Shown here: positions 4,091-53,927 of the stretch, piece by piece
Layout of the letters: every line of letters starts with the position of its first letter
How positions within the stretch are numbered: the stretch's first letter is position 1
DNA from: Stegostoma tigrinum
Taxonomy: Eukaryota
Assembly (NCBI RefSeq): GCF_030684315.1
Contig: NC_081376.1
Span: 34,315,608-34,379,607 of the forward strand
Direction: 5' to 3'
DNA length: 64,000 nt
Made by a program: the position numbers and the translations under genes
Notes under the pieces: generated by a model
The model's database searches: none
What the model was told of the DNA's origin: nothing
The model's input: the letters and a program-made list of their open reading frames with translations, nothing else

Positions 4091-4947
4091 GTATTAATTC
4101 AGTGGATGTGGACTTTGTTGAATGGCTCAGCACTTAGTGGCCACATTTAGAGGTGGAGGTAAGCTACCCTGAACCATTGCAGTCCATTTGATGTGGGTAC
4201 CTCCACAATTGTGAGAAGGTAGTGTTCCAGGAGTTTGACCCAATCACCATGAAAGAACAATAGTTCCTAGTTGGGACTGAGTACTTAGAGAAAAGTTTCA
4301 TGTTCCTGGTATATGTTGTCCTAGTTCTTGATGGTAGGGGGGCAGCTGGCTCATTGGTCTATAGTATGATTCTTGCTTCAGGTTTTTCAGTGATTGGGTT
4401 TGTATTATCTGGACTATCAATCTTTAAATCCATTTCATACATTTGCAAAGATGTTTTTCCTTTTTTTATATATATTAAAAAAATAAGCATTTGGTTAAGG
4501 GCATAAACTCATCAGTAACTAATGACTTCTTTGCTTCTCAGTTTCCTGTTGAGGAGTTCAAAATGCTAACAGTTTTAAAGTCAGTGATTTTTTTTTTTGT
4601 TTTTTGTTTTTCTCATCCCAGATCAGTTTAGATGAAAAGTCAGCTGGACTTGGATTTTTGAATGGAAGTAACAGATCAGCTTTCAAGGCTGATGAAGTAG
4701 TCAGACTAATATTCAGAACTTTCTCAGGCTATCAGAGATACTTTCTGATAGTCCTGCTTTTTTAAGGTTTCTTATTTTTCAGGAGTGAGTCTTGTTTATT
4801 GCAAGTTTTGGAGGTCTTTTCTACTCCACAACTAAGTATCCACTGGAAAATATGCCAACTTCAGAAGAATGTCGTTAGGCCCTATCTCTACCAAACCAAG
4901 TTTTCCAGCGAATAAAGCAATAAAGCTGATCCCATCTCAAACAAAGA

Positions 4948-5034
4948 ATGAAGGGTCTAGGCCCGAAATGTCAGCTTCTGTGCTCCTAAGATGCTGCTTG
5001 GCCTGCTGTGTTCATCCAGCTCTACGTTTTGTTA
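4948..5034 (+). mobile_element. Isolated Penelope-like pseudo-LTR fragment
   Basis: ATGAAGGGTCTAGGCCCGAAATGTCAGC...GCCTGCTGTGTTCATCCAGC, same family as 6777-6864. Confidence 0.75.
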
Positions 5035-5078
5035 TAATAAAGAATTGTTTGTCGTCTTGCCAAAGTTACTTGACTTTC

Positions 5079-6864
5079 GTCCAGTCCCTGTACACCTGCA
5101 TTCCGCATGGAGATGGCCTCAAGGCCCTCCGCTTCTTCCTGTCCCGCAGGCCCGACCAGTCCCCCTCCACCGACACTCTCATCCGCCTAGCTGAACTCGT
5201 CCTCACACTCAACAACTTCTCTTTTGACTCCTCCCACTTCCTACAGACTAAGGGGGTGGCCATGGGCACCCGCATGGGCCCCAGCTATGCCTGCCTCTTT
5301 GTAGGTTACGTGGAACAATCCCTCTTCCGCACCTACACAGGCCCCAAACCCCACCTCTTCCTCCGGTACATTGATGACTGTATCGGCGCCGCCTCTTGCT
5401 CCCCAGAGGAGCTCGAACAGTTCATCCACTTCACCAACACCTTCCACCCCAACCTTCAGTTCACCTGGGCCATCTCCAGCACATCCCTCACCTTCCTGGA
5501 CCTCTCAGTCTCCATCTCAGGCAACCAGCTTGTAACTGATGTCCATTTCAAGCCCACCGACTCCCACAGCTACCTAGAATACACCTCCTCCCACCCACCC
5601 TCCTGCAAAAATTCCATCCCCTATTCCCAATTCCTCCGCCTCCGCCGCATCTGCTCCCACGATAAGACATTCCACTCCCGCACATCCCAGATGTCCAAGT
5701 TCTTTAAGGACCGCAACTTTCCCCCCACGGTGATCGAGAACGCCCTTGACCGCATTTCCCGCGACACATCCCTCACACCCCGCCCCCGCCACAACCGCCC
5801 CAAGAGGATCCCCCTCGTTCTCACACACCACCCTACCAACCTCCGGATACAATGTATTATCCTCCGACACTTCCGCCATTTACAATCCGACCCCACCACC
5901 CAAGACATTTTTCCATCCCCTCCCCTGTCTGCTTTCCGGAGAGACCACTCACTCCGTGACTCCCTTGTTCGCTCCACACTGCCCTCAAACCCCACCACAC
6001 CCGGCACCTTCCCCTGCAACCGCAGGAAATGCTACACTTGTCCCCACACCTCCTCCCTCACCCCCATCCCAGGCCCCAAGATGACATTCCACATCAAGCA
6101 GAGGTTCACCTGCACATCTGCCAATGTGGTATACTGCATCCACTGTACCTGGTGCGGCTTCCTCTACATTGGGGAAACCAAGCGGAGGCTTGGGGACCGC
6201 TTTGCAGAACACCTCCGCTCAGTTCGCAACAAACAACTGCACCTCCCAGTCGCAAACCATTTCCACTCCCCCTCCCATTCTCTTGATGACATGTCCATCA
6301 CGGGCCTCCTGCACTGCCACAATGATGCCACCCGAAGGTTGCAGGAACAGCAACTCATATTCCGCCTGGGAACCCTGCAGCCATATGGTATCAATGTGGA
6401 CTTCACCAGTTTCAAAATCTCCCCTTCCCCAACTGCATCCCTAAACCAGCCCAGTTCATCCCCTCCCCCCACTGCACCACACAACCAGCCCAGCTCTTCC
6501 CCCCCCACCCACTACATCCCAAAACCAGTCCCACCTGTCTCTGCCTCCCTAACCGGTTCTTCCTCTCACCCATCCCTTCCTCCCACCCCAAGCCGCACCC
6601 CCCGCTACCTACTAACCTCATCCCACCTCCTTGACCTGTCCGTCTCCCCTGGACTGACCTATCCCCTCCCTACCTCCCCACCTACACTCTCTCCACCTAT
6701 CTTCTTTACTCTCCATCTTCGGTCCGCCTCCCCCTCTCTCCCTATTTATTCCAGTTCCCTCCCCCCATCCCCCTCTCTGATGAAGGGTCTAGGCCCGAAA
6801 CGTCAGCTTTTGTGCTCCTGAGATGCTGCTCGGCCTGCTGTGTTCATCCAGCCTCGCATTTTAT
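5079..6864 (+). mobile_element. Penelope-like retroelement (Neptune-type), 5'-truncated, with open RT + GIY-YIG frame and 3' pseudo-LTR
   Basis: RT motifs (D)VQSLYT, GVAMGTRMGPSYA, LRYIDD; CxxxxCxxC knuckle; NVVYCIHCxxC...YIGET..RF.EH endonuclease; 13-bp TSD TTACTTGACTTTC at 5066-5078 and 6865-6877. Confidence 0.93.
6775..6806 (+). ncRNA. Minimal hammerhead-ribozyme-like motif in the Penelope pseudo-LTR
   Basis: CTGATGA - A GGG(TCTAGG)CCC - GAAA - CGTC: both core boxes around a stem II, palindromic ACGT stem III. Stem I is only ~2 bp. Confidence 0.6.
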
Positions 6865-24179: not shown

Positions 24180-25205
24180 GGAATTTGCACATTCTCCCCG
24201 TGTCTCCATGGGTTTCTTCCGGCTGCTGTCATTTCCTCTCACATCCCAAAGGTGTGAAGGGTCAGGTAGATTGGCCATGCTAAATTGCCCATAGTGTCCA
24301 TGGATGTGCAGGCTAGGTAGATTAGCTATGGGAAATTGTAAGATTAAAGGCAGGATTCTCGGCAGTGTGGAGGAACAGCGGGATCTTGGTATTCAAGTGC
24401 ATAGCTCCCTCAAAGTTGCCACCCAGGTGGATAAGGTTGTTAAGAAAGCATATGGTGTTTTGGCTTTCATTTAACAGGGGGATTGGGTTTAAGAGCTGCA
24501 AGGTTATGCTGCAGCTCTACAAAACCCTGGTGAGACCACACTTGGAATATTGTGTCCAGTTCTGGTCGCCCTATTATAGGAAAGATGTGGAGGCTTTGGA
24601 GAGGGTGCAAAGGAGGTTTACCAGGATGCTGCCTGGACTGGAGGGCTTGTCTTACGAGGAGAGGTTGACTGAGCTCAGACTTTTCTCTCTGGAGAGAAGG
24701 AGGAAGAGAGGTGACCTGATCGAGGTGTACAAGGTAATGAGAGGCATGGATAGAGTCGATAGCCAAAGACTTTTCCCCAGGGCAGGATTGGCTGCCTCGA
24801 GGGGTCATAGTTTTAAGGTGTTAGGAGGAAGGTATAGAGGAGACGTCAGAGGGAGGTTCTTCACCCAGAGAATTGTGAGCACATGGAATAGTTTGCCAGT
24901 GGTAGTCGTGGAAGCGGAGGCATTAGTGACATTTAAGCGACTGCTGGACATGCACATGGACAGCAGTGAATTGAGGGGAATGTAGGTTAGGTTATTTTAT
25001 TTTTGGATTAGGATTATTCCACGGCACAACATCGTGGGCCAAAGGGCCTGTACTGTGCTGTACTTTGCTATGTTCTATGTTCTATGAAATGCAGGGTTAC
25101 AGGGATAGGGTGGGGAGGGGAGGTATGTCTGAGTGGGATGCTGTTCAGAGGGTTGGTGTCAACTCAGTGGGCCAAATGGCCTGCTTCCACACTCCGGGGA
25201 TTCAA
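24180..25205 (+). mobile_element. HE1-like SINE interrupted by a younger CR1 insertion (~24339-25085)
   Basis: SINE V-domain at 24180-24337 resumes at ~25086. CR1 part reads LYKTLVRPHLEYCVQFWSP...FKRLLD in an open frame and ends in (TATGTTC)n. Confidence 0.85.
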
Positions 25206-26717
25206 TGACAAATGGAAACATCTTGTCTACATCTACCCGATGCAAGTCTCCTGTAAACTTAAGATTGCTACTGAGTCACCTCCTTCACCTTTGCCGATGT
25301 AAAGAACCCCAATCTATTTTGATAGATATAAACTCTGTTCTGGAGTAACCTTTTGTAAATTTTCTACACTTCATGATATTCAAAACTAAACAGCCCCATT
25401 TAACCTAGCTTAAGTCCCAGTTGGTCTGTCATCGATGCTCTAACGATGATTGGAGATCAATACTTGGTTCAGCTGCCAATGTAAGTTTCCATAAGAGAAT
25501 GAGAAAATGCATTTCGCATGAGACTTGGTGAAAATTCACAAGGTCAAATGAATTAGGACTGCAATAAAATTAATGTTAAAGGACACTCTGTCAAAAAAAA
25601 GCCTTCAAAAAGTGTGTACTTATGCAGGTTATTTAGGTGCCTGTGATAAGTTAACCTTTGATCCACCTTCCAGCACAGGGACCGTAACATGTACACCTTA
25701 CAAATGGAGACCATTAGCTTATGCAGTGATATAACTTGTAATTGGCAAGCCCCAAAAACTAATGTTTAAACTTTTTTATGCATTAGATTAGTTCAGTTTG
25801 GCGCAGCATCGAGGGCCGAAGGGCCTGTTCTGCGCTGTATTGTTCTATGTTCTATGACTGACTATGTAGTGGGTTGTGATGTTCATGTTTTCTCAAAGAA
25901 CCCAAGCAGTATGGGGGTGCTATTTAACCCCTTGAACTTCTGTACAATTCAATAAAGTCTTGGCTGATCAGAGACCTGACCTTTTGGTTAGCGAAGACTG
26001 TCCAGCTCAAGTTTAAAATTTACAATTGACCTCTTATAAATAATAACGGGCAGTAGACAGAGTTTCAGACTTTTACCACCTTTTGCATGGGGAAGTATTT
26101 CACGATCTTACTCCTGAAAATTTTGGCTCAGTCCCCTAATCCCAGACTCACTGACCAATGAAAATGATTACTCACAATCTACTCGTTGTTTTCTTTAGAA
26201 TCTTGAATGTTGTTGGGATCAGCCCTCAACCTTCTAAATTGGAAAATGCAACCTAGTTTGTGTAATGTCTCCTTGTAGCTTAACCCTTGAAGCCCAAGTT
26301 CTAGCCTGTCACTATTTGGGAAATACCTTTCCTTCTCCCTTTTAGGTCCAAAGTGGATGATCTCACCTTTGCCCATGACTTTCGACTGCATCATCTCATT
26401 AATAAATAAAGTGAGACCCCAGCACAAACCCTGCTAGGGCATCATTGATCTCGCCTTGCTCAATAGAATACCTGCCCATTATCCTTAATCTTACTCTCCC
26501 TCTGTTCTGATCCGAATGAGGTCAATAATTTGCCTTCAGCTACACTCACTATGCCCCCCTCCCCAATCCATTTGCCATAGTTATGTTCATTTACTTAATA
26601 TGCAGAAGTATTTCCAAACATACACAGGTAATGCAACAATTATACACTTTTTCTGCACTGGTGTACAGTGCACTGATACTATCCCTTTCTAACAAACTTA
26701 AAACCTGTGTAACTGAC

Positions 26718-27080
26718 CTTTGAGCACCAGCATTGTACCATTTCCCATTTGTTTGGACTTGATGGAAGGGGATTTCTGGAAGGCTACACCACAGTAATAC
26801 ATGCCGTTGTCTGCTTGGGTCAGTTGCTGAATTCTCAAGGCAGCATTGTCACCAGAACTTGTGTCGGACAGAGTAAACCTCCCATTAGACGACTTACTTG
26901 AACAGGCTCCCGAGCACAGATTTGTCGTTTGGTTGGTGTTGATCTTGAACCACAGCACTTTAGGTGTGCTGTGGCAATAGGCATGAGTGAAAGTGCAGTT
27001 GATGGTCACATTTTTGGTCAAGTGACCTTCAATGAAAGGTTCTTGATTGACAGTAACAGTACAGTCTTTTGAAGCAAAGC
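26718..27080 (-). CDS. IGSF6: IGSF6 exon 2 (V-type Ig domain)
   Basis: CTVTVNQ...VTINCTF...C...LWF...NLCSGAC...DNGMYYCGVAF...KQMGNGTMLVLK; six-Cys pattern and GxGT as in human IGSF6; phase 1-1. Confidence 0.93.
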
Positions 27081-28939
27081 CTGTTGAAAATGCAAACTGT
27101 TATTTCATTGTACTTTTTTCCTTGCTGTTTTGAATACTAAACATGGATTGAAAAAACATGGTTTAGCTCATTCAGGTTTTGGTTTGTAAGAGGCAAGTAA
27201 CATTCACACCACACGAGCGCCAGGCACTGACTATCTCCAACAAAAGAGTCAGATCAGCAGCATTACCATTGTTGAACCAGGTGGCAACCTGCTTATCCGC
27301 AGCATGTGGAATCCATAAGATCCCAGGAAATGCAGACGGCCTGGGAGTCCACTAACCATGTAGGCAGGTGTGAGGACATGCACTATGCCTCTTATTGCAT
27401 AAGCATTACCACCTCTGAGCAGCAGCCAAAACAGGAAATGCCTCCGAGAAATCGGAACAGGATGGTGAGGATTCCCAGGAGACCTTTCATATTTCAGCGT
27501 GGGGCTCCAAAAGGAGGTTTCGCAACCCGAGGCCAAAGTGAAGTTTCATCTGAACAGGAGTTACTTTGGACCAGAATCCACCACATGTATCAACCACATT
27601 GAATCCATCCTCTGAGCACCAGTGGATGGTATTGACTACAAGCTGGATATCCATAGGTGCAAAGCTTGTGGACTCATCTCTCACTCTCTTCCACCAGCCA
27701 GCACATTGCCAACTCATGTCACCACCATGGCAAATGTCTTTGTATTCTTTTAAATAAATAAATGTTTTGAACAGTCCTTAGTGGTGCACTACGAAAAATT
27801 CAATACATTAACAGAGGCTATAAAAATTAAAACAGACCTTTTTAAAAAATATTTAACCTTTGGGACGATGACGATGATACAGCCCAACTCCTACAGAAGC
27901 TATTGTTCAAAATCTTTTTATATTTTCAAACTTGGTTACATCAAATCAACTGAATGAACTAATCAATTTAACCAGCATTTAAAGTGGGATAGTTGGTGTC
28001 TGTCTGGATAGCTCGCTTAAAAAATAAACTTAGCTCATTAAAAAGTGACATTTCTTAAAGGGCACTGTAACAAAAATCAACTTGTAAAGGTCAAAATAAA
28101 TTTAGAAAAATTTGATTTTGAGAGTTGCAGAAGAAATTCATTTTTATATAATCTCAAGGTTAATCAATCTATGCCTACCACATACATCTTTAACCTTAAT
28201 TTGGTTAACATATAATTAACAAAGAAACTCCACATCATTCAGGGCAAAGTATCCCTTTGATTGGCACACCCTCCATCAGGCTTCCATCACCAGGTGCGGT
28301 GGCAGCATTGTATCTACATTGTTTCTTGTTGCTGCAGAAACTTACTGAGGCACCTTCAAAAGTTTCTTTCAATGCATGACCTCCTACGTTGAAGGACAAG
28401 AGTAGCACGCAGCAACCAGTCCAATCTGTTTAATTAAACGTTCCAAAGAGACTTCACACGCATCATAAAACAAAATTTGAGAAGGGGCCTTTTCCCCCAC
28501 TTCCTTTGTAGTCTCCTCATTCATCTAACCTCCATCTTGCGACATCTATCCTATCTTCCCCCAGCAGCCACTGCTTCCCCTGGCCTGGCCCAGGGCAAAA
28601 GCTCTGAAAGGTCCAACTCCTGTCAAAAGCCCTGGTCCAAGTGAAAAGTTGTTCTGGCTCTAATTACTTCCCCACACTCACCACGTACTTTCCAAAGAGT
28701 TTGTGCACTTCCAGTGGGAGAATACCAACCTGCGATTGGAGGAGTTGCTCCTCAGACGTTCTGTCCTTTCTGTGTAAGGGGGTGACTTGTCTCATTTGGT
28801 GGCCCCAGTAAATGAATTGTCTAAGGTGTATTGTGGACTTTTTGGAGTAAATTTACATATTTTGAGTGCTGACATCAACCAGTGGATGTTTTCCCCTAAA
28901 TTGTCATTGATTCACGTTTTTATTGGGGTCCTTGGTAGA

Positions 28940-35957: not shown

Positions 35958-36224
<267 letters not shown>

Positions 36225-38739: not shown

Positions 38740-40845
38740 TGCACACTGCTTGTTGCGATTAAATAATCATAAGTTACATTTAATTTGGCTACTTATTAGG
38801 ACATCTCACAGATAATCAAGTACTGAAGCAATGATTTAAACTTTTCTAAGACCCCTCAAGTAACTGAGTTAAGCCTCACAACTCAACTTGGCAATTACTC
38901 GATTAATGGTGGAATTTAACTACAGTTCCAACCAACAATATGTGTCTCTGGCAGTGTCTGGGATTCGATCCTTGTGTTGTTCTTCGAAGGTTTACTAATA
39001 AGAGGTTCTAGTGTTGGATTCTTCTATAGATTTTCATCCTTCAGCTCTGTGAGGTGATATTATTGATGATTATTTAGATTCTTTCATATAAAATATTATA
39101 GGTTTGCAGCTTGCCTTCTTATCAGAAGTAACTCCTCTGTTCCTCGTTACATTCAGTGTTATCTGTCTGTTTGAAGACACGTCCTGTCTTATAATTAACT
39201 CCTTCAATCCTTTAGCAAGGTGGTCATTTATCTTTGTGGCCCAAGGCAACCAGTTGTCAAGCAGATGTCGAAACAATTTTGTTCATATTGCTTTGACTCA
39301 TTCATCTCCAGATGTGGCTAATTACTTTCAAATCCTGTCTAAGTTTGTGCTAGTCCCTTAATAGTTTACTCCAGACTGAGTTATTGCTGCTTCTTTTGTG
39401 TGTAACAGTTTATCTTTGATTCTTTCACTCCATGAACAGTTATTAAAGTTCTCAAGTTTATAATATCACAGGCCCTGTTCTTTGTTCATTATTTTCAATA
39501 TGATGAGAAAACACTAGTATGATTGATCATTTTCCATCATATCGGTTCATATCTAAGCTGAGTTGCTACACTTTGCACAATTTAAAATGTACCAATTCAC
39601 TATGTGGTATAGCTTTATGCAGACAAATAATCAAAGAATGAGTTATAGATGAATGATCAGTAAATAAAACACAAACCAAAGATGGATTAATGAGTTTGGA
39701 TAGTGCTTCACCCATTGCAGCTTTAAGATGATCATGTCTTAACAGAACTACAACGAGATGCGTAATAATATGAACCCAAGGTTGTGTGTACATTATTTCT
39801 CCAATTTCGGATGTCATCCCATTGGGAATGTTCCTTAATGTTTTTAGTATCTATTTTGATTCTCTGACTATACTGCTGAACCTTAACATGTAACCTGTGT
39901 GCCTTTCTCAAAAATCCCTTTTGTTGCTTCCAAATGTTCCCTTTTCAGGGCAATATGGGCTTCATATTTTTGCCAATAAGATACAACTATTTCTCTAAAA
40001 GATCACATATTTTCCCTTCCTGATGTTAATTCATCCCATTGTTGCTATGTGTGTGGACAGTTGAGTGTGTTGAATCAGTGATGGGACAAGTTATGATAAT
40101 ACACTCTTTTAAAGACTTTGTGATACTGTATTCCCCTTCACCCACATTTCCAACCCTGATAATATTGTCTAGAATGGTACTTCAAACTTCCGGACTATAG
40201 TTAACTGTTTCATTACCGCTGAACTCACAGCCACATGTGACTTGTCAAGTTGTGTAAATGGGATAAGGACAAACAATAATTTTATCAGTCAGTCTTAAGT
40301 GCTGTCCCAACAAGTCTCCCTCGCTCTTGGTCTCCCCCACCCCAAACCCTTTCCGTACAATGTAGAACTTTCTTACCTCTCATCCAGATGGTGTTTTGAA
40401 TCACTGTAATATTTTGCAATGTTATAACTTTGAATGGTTTGTCTTCATTAGACATAACAGGGTTCCTTAAAACAAGACCTATTCCATTCCCTCCCATACT
40501 CAAATCATTAGTCCGTACATTTATTAACGAGATTAACTCACAGATAGTGATTTTTCTTGAAGTTCCTGTCCCATCAACTAATTTCCTTAGTGTAGTGTCA
40601 TCAACCCATGTAGGAACTTCTCCATTTTCTCTGTACTGATCTAACGTCCAATTGAGTCTTAACATGGTTACGTGAAGGGTCTTGTTTTGGTTGCTACATG
40701 CAATAATGTTTATGTCATTGTTTCAGTACTTGATTGTCTATGATATTTCTTAACAATTAGCCAAGTTAAAGGTAATTTCTGGCGATTTATCCACAATAAC
40801 TTGCATAGCTGAAAAGTGCCCAGTCTATGTCAAATTTCCCTGGAA
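38740..40845 (-). pseudogene. Degraded endogenous viral element: env/fusion-glycoprotein-like frame plus downstream ORF
   Basis: Stop- and frameshift-interrupted minus frame with a Cys-rich ectodomain (IVCPYPIY..TCG...VGNVGEGEYSIT...TCPI), heptad-like helix, W-rich membrane-proximal segment and TM start (WDDIRNWRNNVH/PWVHIITHLVVVLL). Confidence 0.62.
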
Positions 40846-52633: not shown

Positions 52634-52868
52634 GTAAGATCTTAACTTATCCTTTGGAGTGTGCTTTCTAACCTGCTATAATATTCCTTGGGTGTATTTC
52701 ACAGGCTCATTTTTCTCATTGCCTTGAGCAGGTTGGCGATCCCTTGTCTGAGAGATTGTCAATGACATGGTGCTGCTGGACAGTGAGAACCATAGAGAGG
52801 GGTCTCAGTTTGCCCCACCCCTGTCCTTTCCAACAGCATTCACTTAAGGAAGCTTGAAACCATTGGAG

Positions 52869-53927
52869 TCCCCGCCATAACCGCCCAAAGAGAATCCCCC
52901 CAGTCCTCACACACCACCCCACCAACCTCCGGATACAATGCATTATCCTCCGACACTTCCACCATCTACAATCCGACCCCACCACCCAAGACATTTTTCC
53001 ATTCCCCCCATCCTTGTCTGCCTTCCGGAGAGACCACTCTCTCCATGACTCCCTTGTCAGCTCCACACTCCCCTCCAACCCCACCACACCCGGCACCTTC
53101 CCCTGCAACCGCAGGAAGTGCTACACTTGCCCCCACACCACCTGCCTCACCCCCATCCCAGGCCCCAAGATGACATTCCACATTAAGCAGAGGTTCACCT
53201 GCACATCTGCCAATGTGGTATACTGCGTCCACTGTACCCGGTGTGGCTTCCTCTTCATTGGGGAAACCAAGCGGAGGCTTGGGGACCGCTTTGCAGAACA
53301 CCTCCGCTCGGTTCGCAATAAACAACTACACCTCCCAGTCACGAACCATTTCAACTCCCCCTCCCATTCCTTAGACGACATGTCCATCCTGGGCCTCCTG
53401 CAGTCCCATAATGATGCCACCCGAAGGTTACAGGAACAGCAACTCCGATTCTGCTTGGGAACCCTACAGCCCAATGGTATCAATGTGGATTTCACCAGCT
53501 TCAAAATCTCCCCTCTTCCCACTGCATCCCAAAACCAGCCCAGCTCATCCACTCCCCCCACTGCATCCCAAAACCAGCCCAGCTCGTCCCCGCCTCCCTA
53601 ACCAGTTCTTCCTCTCACCTATCCAATCCTCCCACCTCAAGCCGCACCTCCATTTCCCACTTACTAACCTCATCCTGCCTCCTTGACCTGCCCGTCCTTC
53701 TTAGACTGACCTATCACCTCCCAACCTCCCCACCTATACTCTCATCTCCACCTATCTTCTTCCCTATCCATCTTCAGTCTGCCTCCCCCTCTCTCCCTAT
53801 TTATTCCAGAACCCTCACTCCATCCCCCTCTCTGATGAAGGGTCTAGGCCCGAAGCATCAGCTTTTGTGCTCCTGAGATGCTGCTGGGCCTGCTGTGTTC
53901 ATCCAGCGCCACACTTTGTTACCTTGG
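52869..53927 (+). mobile_element. Penelope-like (Neptune-type) 3' fragment: GIY-YIG region + pseudo-LTR
   Basis: Close paralog of ~5780-6864 (CNRRKCYTC, VVYCVHCTRCGFLFIGETKRRL); hammerhead GAAA box mutated. Confidence 0.92.

What the first reader, a model, noticed from the sequence alone, without database searches (positions are those of the whole stretch)
39740..40845. Fossil viral envelope gene with a class I fusion (F-like) architecture between METTL9 and OTOA
Seen: an AT-rich, intronless minus-strand frame broken by stops and frameshifts: ITFNLANC*EIS*TIKY*NNDINIIAC...TLDQYRENGEVPTWV...CELISL...GIGLVLRNPVMSNEDKPFKVITLQNI...LVGTAL / IIVCPYPIYTT*QVTCG...VGNVGEGEYSIT...TCPI / LRKAHRLHVKVQQYSQRIKIDTKNIKEHSQWDDIRNWRNNVH / PWVHIITHLVVVLL. 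The order is Cys-rich ectodomain, heptad helix, Trp-rich membrane-proximal region, TM. No CKS-17/CX6CC motif of gamma-type env was seen. Established: some vertebrate retro-lineages (lokiretroviruses) have Env related to Mononegavirales F proteins. Inference: this is such an env relic. No gag, pol or LTR was recognised nearby.
Basis: partly seen in the sequence, partly recalled or inferred. Interest (0 to 1): 0.75.

Follow-up and report, generated by a model that had tools for sequence, protein, structure and literature searches.

The report
Shark retrovirus relic with F-type envelope
This is a broken leftover of an old retrovirus, present in dozens of decayed copies in this shark-type genome; its envelope protein is predicted to be built like the fusion protein of RSV and measles-type viruses, while its enzymes likely belong to the snakehead-retrovirus group, a pairing that would make this envelope type more widespread among fish retroviruses than published.

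Summary
Real, but richer than reported and partly misread. The family has dozens of 65-76%-identical copies: a few gag-pol-env proviruses and more ~5.4-kb pol-less ones, primed by tRNA-Asn. The insertion is shared with two other organism labels. An intact Mustelus homolog, folded (pLDDT 60), matches RSV/paramyxovirus F (Foldseek E 1e-6) and foamy Env, so F-like is supported, though no sequence profile shows it. The RT is closest to snakehead retrovirus (clade Huo), not to lokiretroviruses (hand count, no tree). F-like Env is published for loki and foamy viruses, and SnRV-like ERVs for elephant shark. I did not find the pairing in print, but this scan noted it twice on other genomes. The locus itself is a dead fossil. 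Best side lead: a solo, uninterrupted 764-codon env of this superfamily elsewhere in the genome, without indels in three other organisms (pN/pS about 0.24), a candidate co-opted gene.

The parts
40288..40653 (-). env ectodomain piece A (end of central helix, core beta-sheet region), stop-free frame
   Evidence: 44-58% identical to 11 other copies; 28-30% to shark database Env proteins
39786..40298 (-). env piece B (Cys-rich domains, HR2 heptads, Trp-rich membrane-proximal region), another frame, 5 stops
39740..39796 (-). shortened TM remnant, third frame; the stretch between membrane-proximal region and tail is 47 bases against 134 in a pol-bearing copy, and equally short in L019, L026, L032
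39484..39739 (-). remnant tail and 3' untranslated part of the provirus
   Evidence: continuous DNA similarity to other copies
39471..39483 (-). polypurine tract before the LTR
   Evidence: read directly from the sequence; same place in L019, L025, L026
38751..39470 (-). 3' LTR, 720 bp, TG...CA
   Evidence: matches both LTRs of full copies; 40 of 40 scored candidates (of 1018) match, the long matches of other copies at 69-76%
   Evidence: hits of 5' LTRs run 10-17 bp past the LTR end (to 40806-40813), hits of 3' LTRs stop by 40796
36012..36215 (+). context: last DREV-matching exon of METTL9, 2.5 kb from the LTR

Best explanation
The stretch is the broken 3' half of the env gene and the 3' LTR of an old endogenous retrovirus whose enzymes likely belong to the snakehead-retrovirus group (clade Huo, class III) and whose envelope is predicted to be an F-type class I fusion protein. 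Shown: family of dispersed LTR elements; gag-like ORF, RT, tether, integrase and env in longer copies; tRNA-Asn PBS; signal peptide, basic cleavage site, hydrophobic peptide, two heptad regions, Trp-rich region and TM in homologs; insertion shared by three organism labels. Inferred: the ancestral Env was furin-cleaved and fused membranes by the F-type hairpin refolding; this copy came from a rearranged, pol-less master with a shortened TM that was copied in trans by full-length helpers, so its env was probably already disabled when it inserted; an inversion plus deletion later removed its 5' half; it now decays without function.
For: Copies: 15 matches of 150 scored, 42 of 98, 30 of 73 for the gag-like piece. 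LTR pairs in 6 of 20 fetched loci, K2P 0.14-0.31. Pol domains RVT_1, RT_RNaseH_2, Integrase_H2C2, rve in L021 and RVT_1 in L056; best PDB RT hits MLV-type (6e-22), foamy (5e-19), Ty3 far behind (9e-7). Hand count over four RT blocks, 109 positions, against rows of the PMC7947760 supplement: SnRV 65, one loki row 50, HERV-L 45, FFV 42. PBS pattern: 8 of 12 genome hits examined are the 3' ends of tRNA-Asn genes, 3 are untyped tRNA-like genes, 1 none. 6 of 8 short copies share the same small integrase-linker remnant between gag and env. Fold of Mustelus homolog P0010 on a 91-row alignment: all 37 Foldseek PDB rows shown are pneumo/paramyxovirus F, best E 1.3e-6, 96 matches at E<=0.001; VIA Z 9.3 RSV F (rmsd 19.4, 331 aligned), Z 8.4 Nipah F (rmsd 4.5, 255 aligned), Z 7.7 foamy Env (rmsd 5.8, 243 aligned); BFVD hits include lispivirus G, baculovirus F, mumps F. 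Atlas leads for the Heterodontus homolog include Baculo_F clusters (under the tool's bar). Orthology: contigs of organisms B and C cover the element at about 90-94% identity, above paralog level, and bridge the inverted piece into unique flank; one contig of C crosses the env/inversion junction.
Against: No sequence-level link to F: no Pfam hit for the window pieces, PF00523 not among the families listed for 91 alignment members (one Baculo_F at E 0.007) and no PF00523 hit in the genome (its control rang nowhere), no PDB sequence hit. The fold is of a homolog 17-30% identical to the window pieces, not of the relic; pLDDT 60.4, pTM 0.39, TM-scores only 0.17-0.26; the first, shallower model gave only E 0.07; in the unbiased wide search the best Z was 7.5, within the range the tool calls common. 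RT placement rests on a hand count with one representative per group, from broken copies, without a tree. The pol class of the Mustelus element itself was not seen.
Confidence: 0.8

Rival explanations
1. It is a lokiretrovirus env relic, extending lokiretroviruses to cartilaginous fish.
For: By eye the shark Env family runs motif by motif with the loki Env sequences in the PMC7947760 supplement: GP..G(I/V)V start, R-x-K-R site, G-(R/K/E)-(I/V)-P-x-(Y/W), (F/L)-I-(I/L)-N/I-P strand, C...CP, CG. The gag-like ORF has a long coiled coil, recalling the loki smc ORF.
Against: RT has LPQG and LDISNGFWSI, as SnRV; the loki rows have CPFG/TPFG. Loki Env hits PF00523, this family does not. The paper screened four chondrichthyan assemblies found in its Table S2 by my search terms and marks none as positive.
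Confidence: 0.07
2. It is a foamy-like ERV (clade Tu), whose Env is known to share the F core.
For: Foamy Env is a joint top hit of the wide fold search (Z 7.5); foamy RTs are second-best in PDB.
Against: RT count lowest for FFV (42 of 109); no Foamy_virus_ENV among listed Pfam families; cleaved N-terminal signal peptide and ~700-760 aa length rather than a leader peptide with a large RBD; a CCHC-like remnant before the protease in L056.
Confidence: 0.06
3. It is a directly endogenised Mononegavirales F gene, or a decayed cellular gene.
For: Fold hits are dominated by paramyxo/pneumovirus F.
Against: The frame sits in LTR elements behind gag and pol, with PBS and purine tract; all named sequence homologs are uncharacterised shark proteins, one preceded by an integrase-type C-terminus.
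Confidence: 0.02
4. The retroviral assignment is right, but the F-like fold is an artefact of long helices plus a low-confidence model.
For: Low TM-scores and large rmsd; many helical non-viral hits near Z 7 in the wide search.
Against: The F matches span residues ~172-556, covering the beta-rich parts, with 240-330 aligned residues, whereas the non-viral hits align 55-106 helical residues; five of the seven best rows of the independent first model were already hMPV F.
Confidence: 0.08

Closest known systems
CmiERV lineage I of elephant shark / SnRV-like ERVs, clade Huo (PMC4422223, PMC6001957, PMC4977317)
   Same: Cartilaginous-fish ERV whose pol is closest to snakehead retrovirus; LTR-gag-pol-env layout.
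   Different: Env type is not described in the passages read; here tRNA-Asn PBS, an amplified pol-less 5.4-kb form and a predicted F-type Env. CmiERV sequences were not compared.
Lokiretrovirus Env (Wang and Han, PMC7947760)
   Same: Signal peptide, R-x-K-R site, fusion peptide, coiled coil, TM; collinear motifs by eye; link to paramyxo/pneumovirus F.
   Different: Carried here by an LPQG-type RT closest to SnRV; no PF00523 hit; the shark Env has a ~150-190 aa N-terminal extension and a long HR2 with a Trp-rich membrane-proximal region.
Foamy virus Env (Fernandez et al., PMC11468914)
   Same: Shared F-type core by structure comparison (Z 7.5-7.7).
   Different: No leader peptide or large RBD insertion; different pol clade.
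Paramyxo/pneumovirus F, baculovirus F, errantivirus F-type ENV (PMC13524379, PMC12583693)
   Same: Predicted fold.
   Different: 7-15% identity in structural alignments; retroviral, vertebrate context.

Membership tests
Endogenous retrovirus (Retroviridae) | Two LTRs with TG...CA, PBS and purine tract | tested here: met
   LTR pairs in 6 of 20 loci; ends, PBS, tract; tRNA-Asn. The window copy keeps the 3' LTR and an inverted 5' piece.
Endogenous retrovirus (Retroviridae) | gag-pol-env order with RT before integrase; RT closer to retroviruses than to Metaviridae | tested here: met
   L021, L056/L018, L058; PDB ranking MLV > foamy >> Ty3
Endogenous retrovirus (Retroviridae) | Dual RNase H (tether plus RH) | tested here: inconclusive
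   Tether start hit (PF17919); a second RH-like stretch is visible by eye in L021/L056 but gave no Pfam hit
SnRV-like ERVs (clade Huo, class III) | RT groups with snakehead retrovirus | tested here: inconclusive
   Hand count favours SnRV 65/109 over loki 50, HERV-L 45, FFV 42; no tree, since the reference sequences could not be loaded into the tools
Lokiretrovirus | RT of the loki type (sister to all retroviruses; CPFG/TPFG in the rows read) | tested here: not met
   LPQG/PQG in L021, L056, L058 against supplement rows
Lokiretrovirus | Env with detectable similarity to PF00523 | tested here: not met
Lokiretrovirus | Integrase close to CGIN1 | not tested
   no reference sequences available in the tools
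F-type class I fusogen (paramyxo/pneumovirus F-like) | Signal peptide, basic cleavage site, fusion peptide, HR1, HR2, TM | tested here: met
   Homologs P0010 and the C6 ORF, and other family copies; the window copy keeps only the part after HR1
F-type class I fusogen (paramyxo/pneumovirus F-like) | Nested three-domain core with strands from both sides of the cleavage site | tested here: met
   Predicted model only: alignments to F and foamy Env span model residues ~172-556 across the cleavage site; moderate confidence
F-type class I fusogen (paramyxo/pneumovirus F-like) | Trimer that fuses membranes | not testable with these tools
   no functional data
Gamma-type Env | CX6CC motif in the TM subunit | tested here: not met
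   absent in P0010, P0011, P0006, P0001, P0002 and the C6 ORF
Foamy-like ERV (clade Tu) | Foamy-type RT and Env with leader peptide | tested here: not met

The most novel reading that the evidence does not exclude
F-type Env is the old, default envelope of aquatic retroviruses: it sits on SnRV-like (Huo) proviruses in sharks as well as on loki and foamy viruses, and predicted walleye epsilonretrovirus Env matches it too (E 2e-9), so the gamma/beta SU-TM type would be the later replacement. Sharks would also have domesticated one such gene: the solo 764-codon env on contig C6, kept without indels in three other organisms.
Probability: 0.4. Interest if true: 0.75.

Novelty: new variant of a known kind. 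Interest (0 to 1): 0.5.

Why it matters
The origin of retroviral Env is open: the lokiretrovirus paper lists four scenarios it cannot separate, and the foamy Env structures split class I fusogens into two origins. An F-type Env on a third retroviral lineage (SnRV-like), with dozens of fossil copies and intact homologs in sharks, favours an ancestral F-type Env and gives material for an Env-versus-RT tree. The window locus itself is dead and adds only a datable fossil. The conserved solo env on C6 would matter more: captured env genes such as syncytins are known from gamma-type and related envs (recalled), and my searches found none of F type in cartilaginous fish.

Tried and rejected
Pfam and PDB sequence searches of window pieces and family profiles: nothing. 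Word-index homolog search with the piece-A alignment: none among 7998 scored; the full HMMER search found 6, of which the 5397-aa sea cucumber protein was dropped as a repeat-like match over 30 positions. PF00523 in the genome: none, with an uninformative control. First fold (19 rows): pLDDT 43.6, no match at E<=0.001. The Atlas did not hold P0010 or P0029. My first idea that the family lacks pol altogether was rejected when L021, L018/L056 and L058 showed pol. LTR dating in years was dropped: K2P 0.14-0.31 gives about 30-70 My at the mammalian rate and 320-700 My at the rate assumed in PMC4422223. No target-site duplication can be read because the 5' end is gone. Expression: no RNA holder listed on record for the C6 ORF; run X13 is of unknown kind, so its cover of the window is not read as transcription. 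The C6 protein is not in the collection by exact look-up, 3 starts tried. OTOA could not be confirmed. Two papers asked for by id (the cartilaginous-fish foamy ERV paper; the original SnRV paper, id recalled) are not held.

Full report
OBSERVATION. The quoted peptides lie in three minus-strand frames between 40824 and 39740. The region 40656-40288 is stop-free for 123 codons, the next piece has five stops, and the third holds a short hydrophobic stretch. Neither Pfam nor PDB sequences recognise them. The own genome (3.2 Gb) holds many relatives: 15 matches of 150 scored candidates for piece A, 42 of 98 for piece B, at 64-78% DNA identity.

ANATOMY. In 20 fetched 10-kb loci the shared sequence spans about 5.0-5.7 kb, and 6 of 20 show direct terminal repeats of up to ~750 bp. 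The window carries one such repeat at 38751-39470, starting TG behind a purine tract and ending CA: the 3' LTR. No gag or pol piece lies in the window. An inversion followed by loss of the 5' half is the simplest account (inference). The PBS pattern matches tRNA-Asn gene ends in 8 of 12 hits examined. METTL9's last DREV exon is 2.5 kb away; OTOA was not confirmed.

THE FAMILY. Short copies hold a gag-like ORF (N-terminal domain, coiled coil, PSAP-like motif) and env with a basic site, hydrophobic peptide and heptads. Three longer copies (L021; L056 with L018; L058) add RT, and L021 and L018 integrase. Six of eight short copies tested share the same small integrase-linker remnant between gag and env, so the pol-less form was amplified from one rearranged master (inference: in trans). 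Of the 8 copies in which both anchors were found, the window copy, L019, L026, L032 and L033 have the short TM region (36-49 bases) and L018, L024, L034 a longer one (90-151); the window copy therefore probably arrived with a disabled env. LTR-LTR distances of six copies are 0.14-0.31, and the other scored LTR copies are at most about 76% identical over long matches: an old family. Contigs from organisms B and C match the window element at about 90-94% and bridge it into unique flank; one contig of C crosses the env/inversion junction. Insertion and rearrangement predate their split.

WHICH RETROVIRUS. PDB ranks the RT piece nearest MLV-type and foamy RTs and far from Ty3. The supplement of the lokiretrovirus paper prints an RT alignment. 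The loki rows have CPFG or TPFG where retroviruses have LPQG; this family has LPQG and LDISNGFWSI, as SnRV does. Counting by hand over four blocks (109 positions; two from L056, two from L021): SnRV 65, the first loki row shown 50, HERV-L 45, FFV 42. This points to clade Huo but is not a phylogeny.

WHICH ENVELOPE. HMMER over 1.84 billion representatives gave 6 hits, three named from sharks, two unnamed, one repeat artefact; further searches added Mustelus, Chiloscyllium, Pristiophorus and Heterodontus proteins. P0010 (Mustelus, 714 aa) is intact and collinear with the window pieces. None has CX6CC. Its first model (19 rows) was poor, yet hMPV F took five of the seven best rows (E 0.07). With 91 rows pLDDT rose to 60.4; Foldseek then gave only pneumo/paramyxovirus F in the 37 rows shown (best E 1.3e-6), VIA Z 8.2-9.3 for RSV, hPIV3, Langya, Nipah and hMPV F and 7.7 for foamy Env over residues ~172-556 and beyond, and foamy Env and NDV F on top of the unbiased search at Z 7.5. 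BFVD added lispivirus, baculovirus F and walleye retrovirus Env. Against: low TM-scores, no PF00523 hit anywhere, and the fold is of a homolog. By eye the family follows loki Env motif by motif.

MECHANISM. Shown: proviral anatomy, decay, shared insertion. Predicted: F-type fold. From established knowledge of class I fusion (PMC11468914 passages): cleavage frees the fusion peptide and HR1/HR2 zip into a hairpin. Inferred: mobilisation of the short form by helpers; present neutrality of this locus.

KNOWN VERSUS NEW. F-like Env is published for lokiretroviruses (PMC7947760: main text parts 1-3 of 4, supplement parts 1 and 68 and search passages seen; the PDF is cut at 300 of 318 pages) and foamy viruses (PMC11468914: passages), and for invertebrate errantiviruses (PMC13524379: abstract and passages; it defers vertebrate ERVs). 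SnRV-like ERVs are published for elephant shark (PMC4422223: first half of the text; PMC4977317 and PMC6001957: passages). Viro3D (PMC12583693: passages) expects more retroviral F-type proteins but names none of this group in the passages seen. Two EVE surveys (PMC11521997, PMC11089739: passages) and one preprint (10.1101/2024.03.17.585361: one passage) did not describe it in what I saw. Searches found no paper on an F-type Env in SnRV-like ERVs or on a co-opted shark env; subscription papers, among them the original SnRV description and Calcraft et al. 2024, were not seen and may cover it. This scan's earlier notes e1-7857565 and e1-7805497 report the same pairing in other genomes; they are AI notes and not support.

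SIDE FINDING. A solo, uninterrupted 764-codon env on contig C6 has no LTR or pol in 38 kb, is covered without listed indels by contigs of three other organisms, is less diverged than the window locus, and shows 12 silent of 23 listed differences (pN/pS about 0.24); a frame of this length survived random change of 3% without a stop in 2.5% of 400 trials. It is a candidate co-opted gene; expression is not shown.

VERDICT. Real fossil; F-like supported by prediction; SnRV-like rather than loki; locus dead. New variant of a known kind, interest 0.5.

Noticed in passing
L037:917-3211 (+) = G000:C6:85878916-85881210: Uninterrupted 764-codon env of the same superfamily (22-24% identical to P0010; signal peptide, RKRR site, TM). 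No LTR pair or pol in 38 kb around it. Contigs of organisms B, C and D cover it with no indel listed inside the frame; B differs at 114 of 3001 bases against about 6-7% at the window locus. Of 23 listed differences to B in the first third, 12 are silent, pN/pS about 0.24; only 40 of 328 differences were shown, so stops elsewhere are unchecked. Candidate co-opted env.
   Followed up: partly
(BFVD): Predicted Env models of walleye dermal sarcoma virus and walleye epidermal hyperplasia virus 1 rank 4 and 5 (E 2e-9, TM 0.15-0.26): epsilonretrovirus Env may be F-type too. Model against model, a lead only; not found in print by searches.
   Followed up: no
G000, 65 matches; L038-L055, L076-L115: Several further decayed ERV families with the same Env type, some with RT and integrase upstream (L038, L039, L046, L047, L051, L054).
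   Followed up: partly
P0010, P0029, P0030 (Mustelus), P0006, P0017 (Heterodontus), P0012 and others (Chiloscyllium), P0015, P0016 (Pristiophorus): Intact or partial homologs annotated only as uncharacterised proteins; several near-identical Mustelus copies point to a young family there.
   Followed up: partly
L019, L026, L025, L032, L017, L020 (short copies): Short form: gag N-terminus with coiled coil and a PSAP-like motif, then two small integrase-linker blocks separated by about 410 bases that the pol-bearing copies lack there, then env. The 410 bases are unexplained.
   Followed up: partly
window 26698-27096 (-): Ig V-set exon inside a METTL9 intron on the opposite strand; IGSF6 by recalled synteny.
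   Followed up: no
window 4836-6821 (+), 52858-53601 (+), 24326-24985 (+): A 661-codon RT frame with a GIY-YIG-like end by eye (Penelope-like, label recalled; RVT_1 E 0.003), a second partial copy, and CR1-type LINE ends (label recalled).
   Followed up: no
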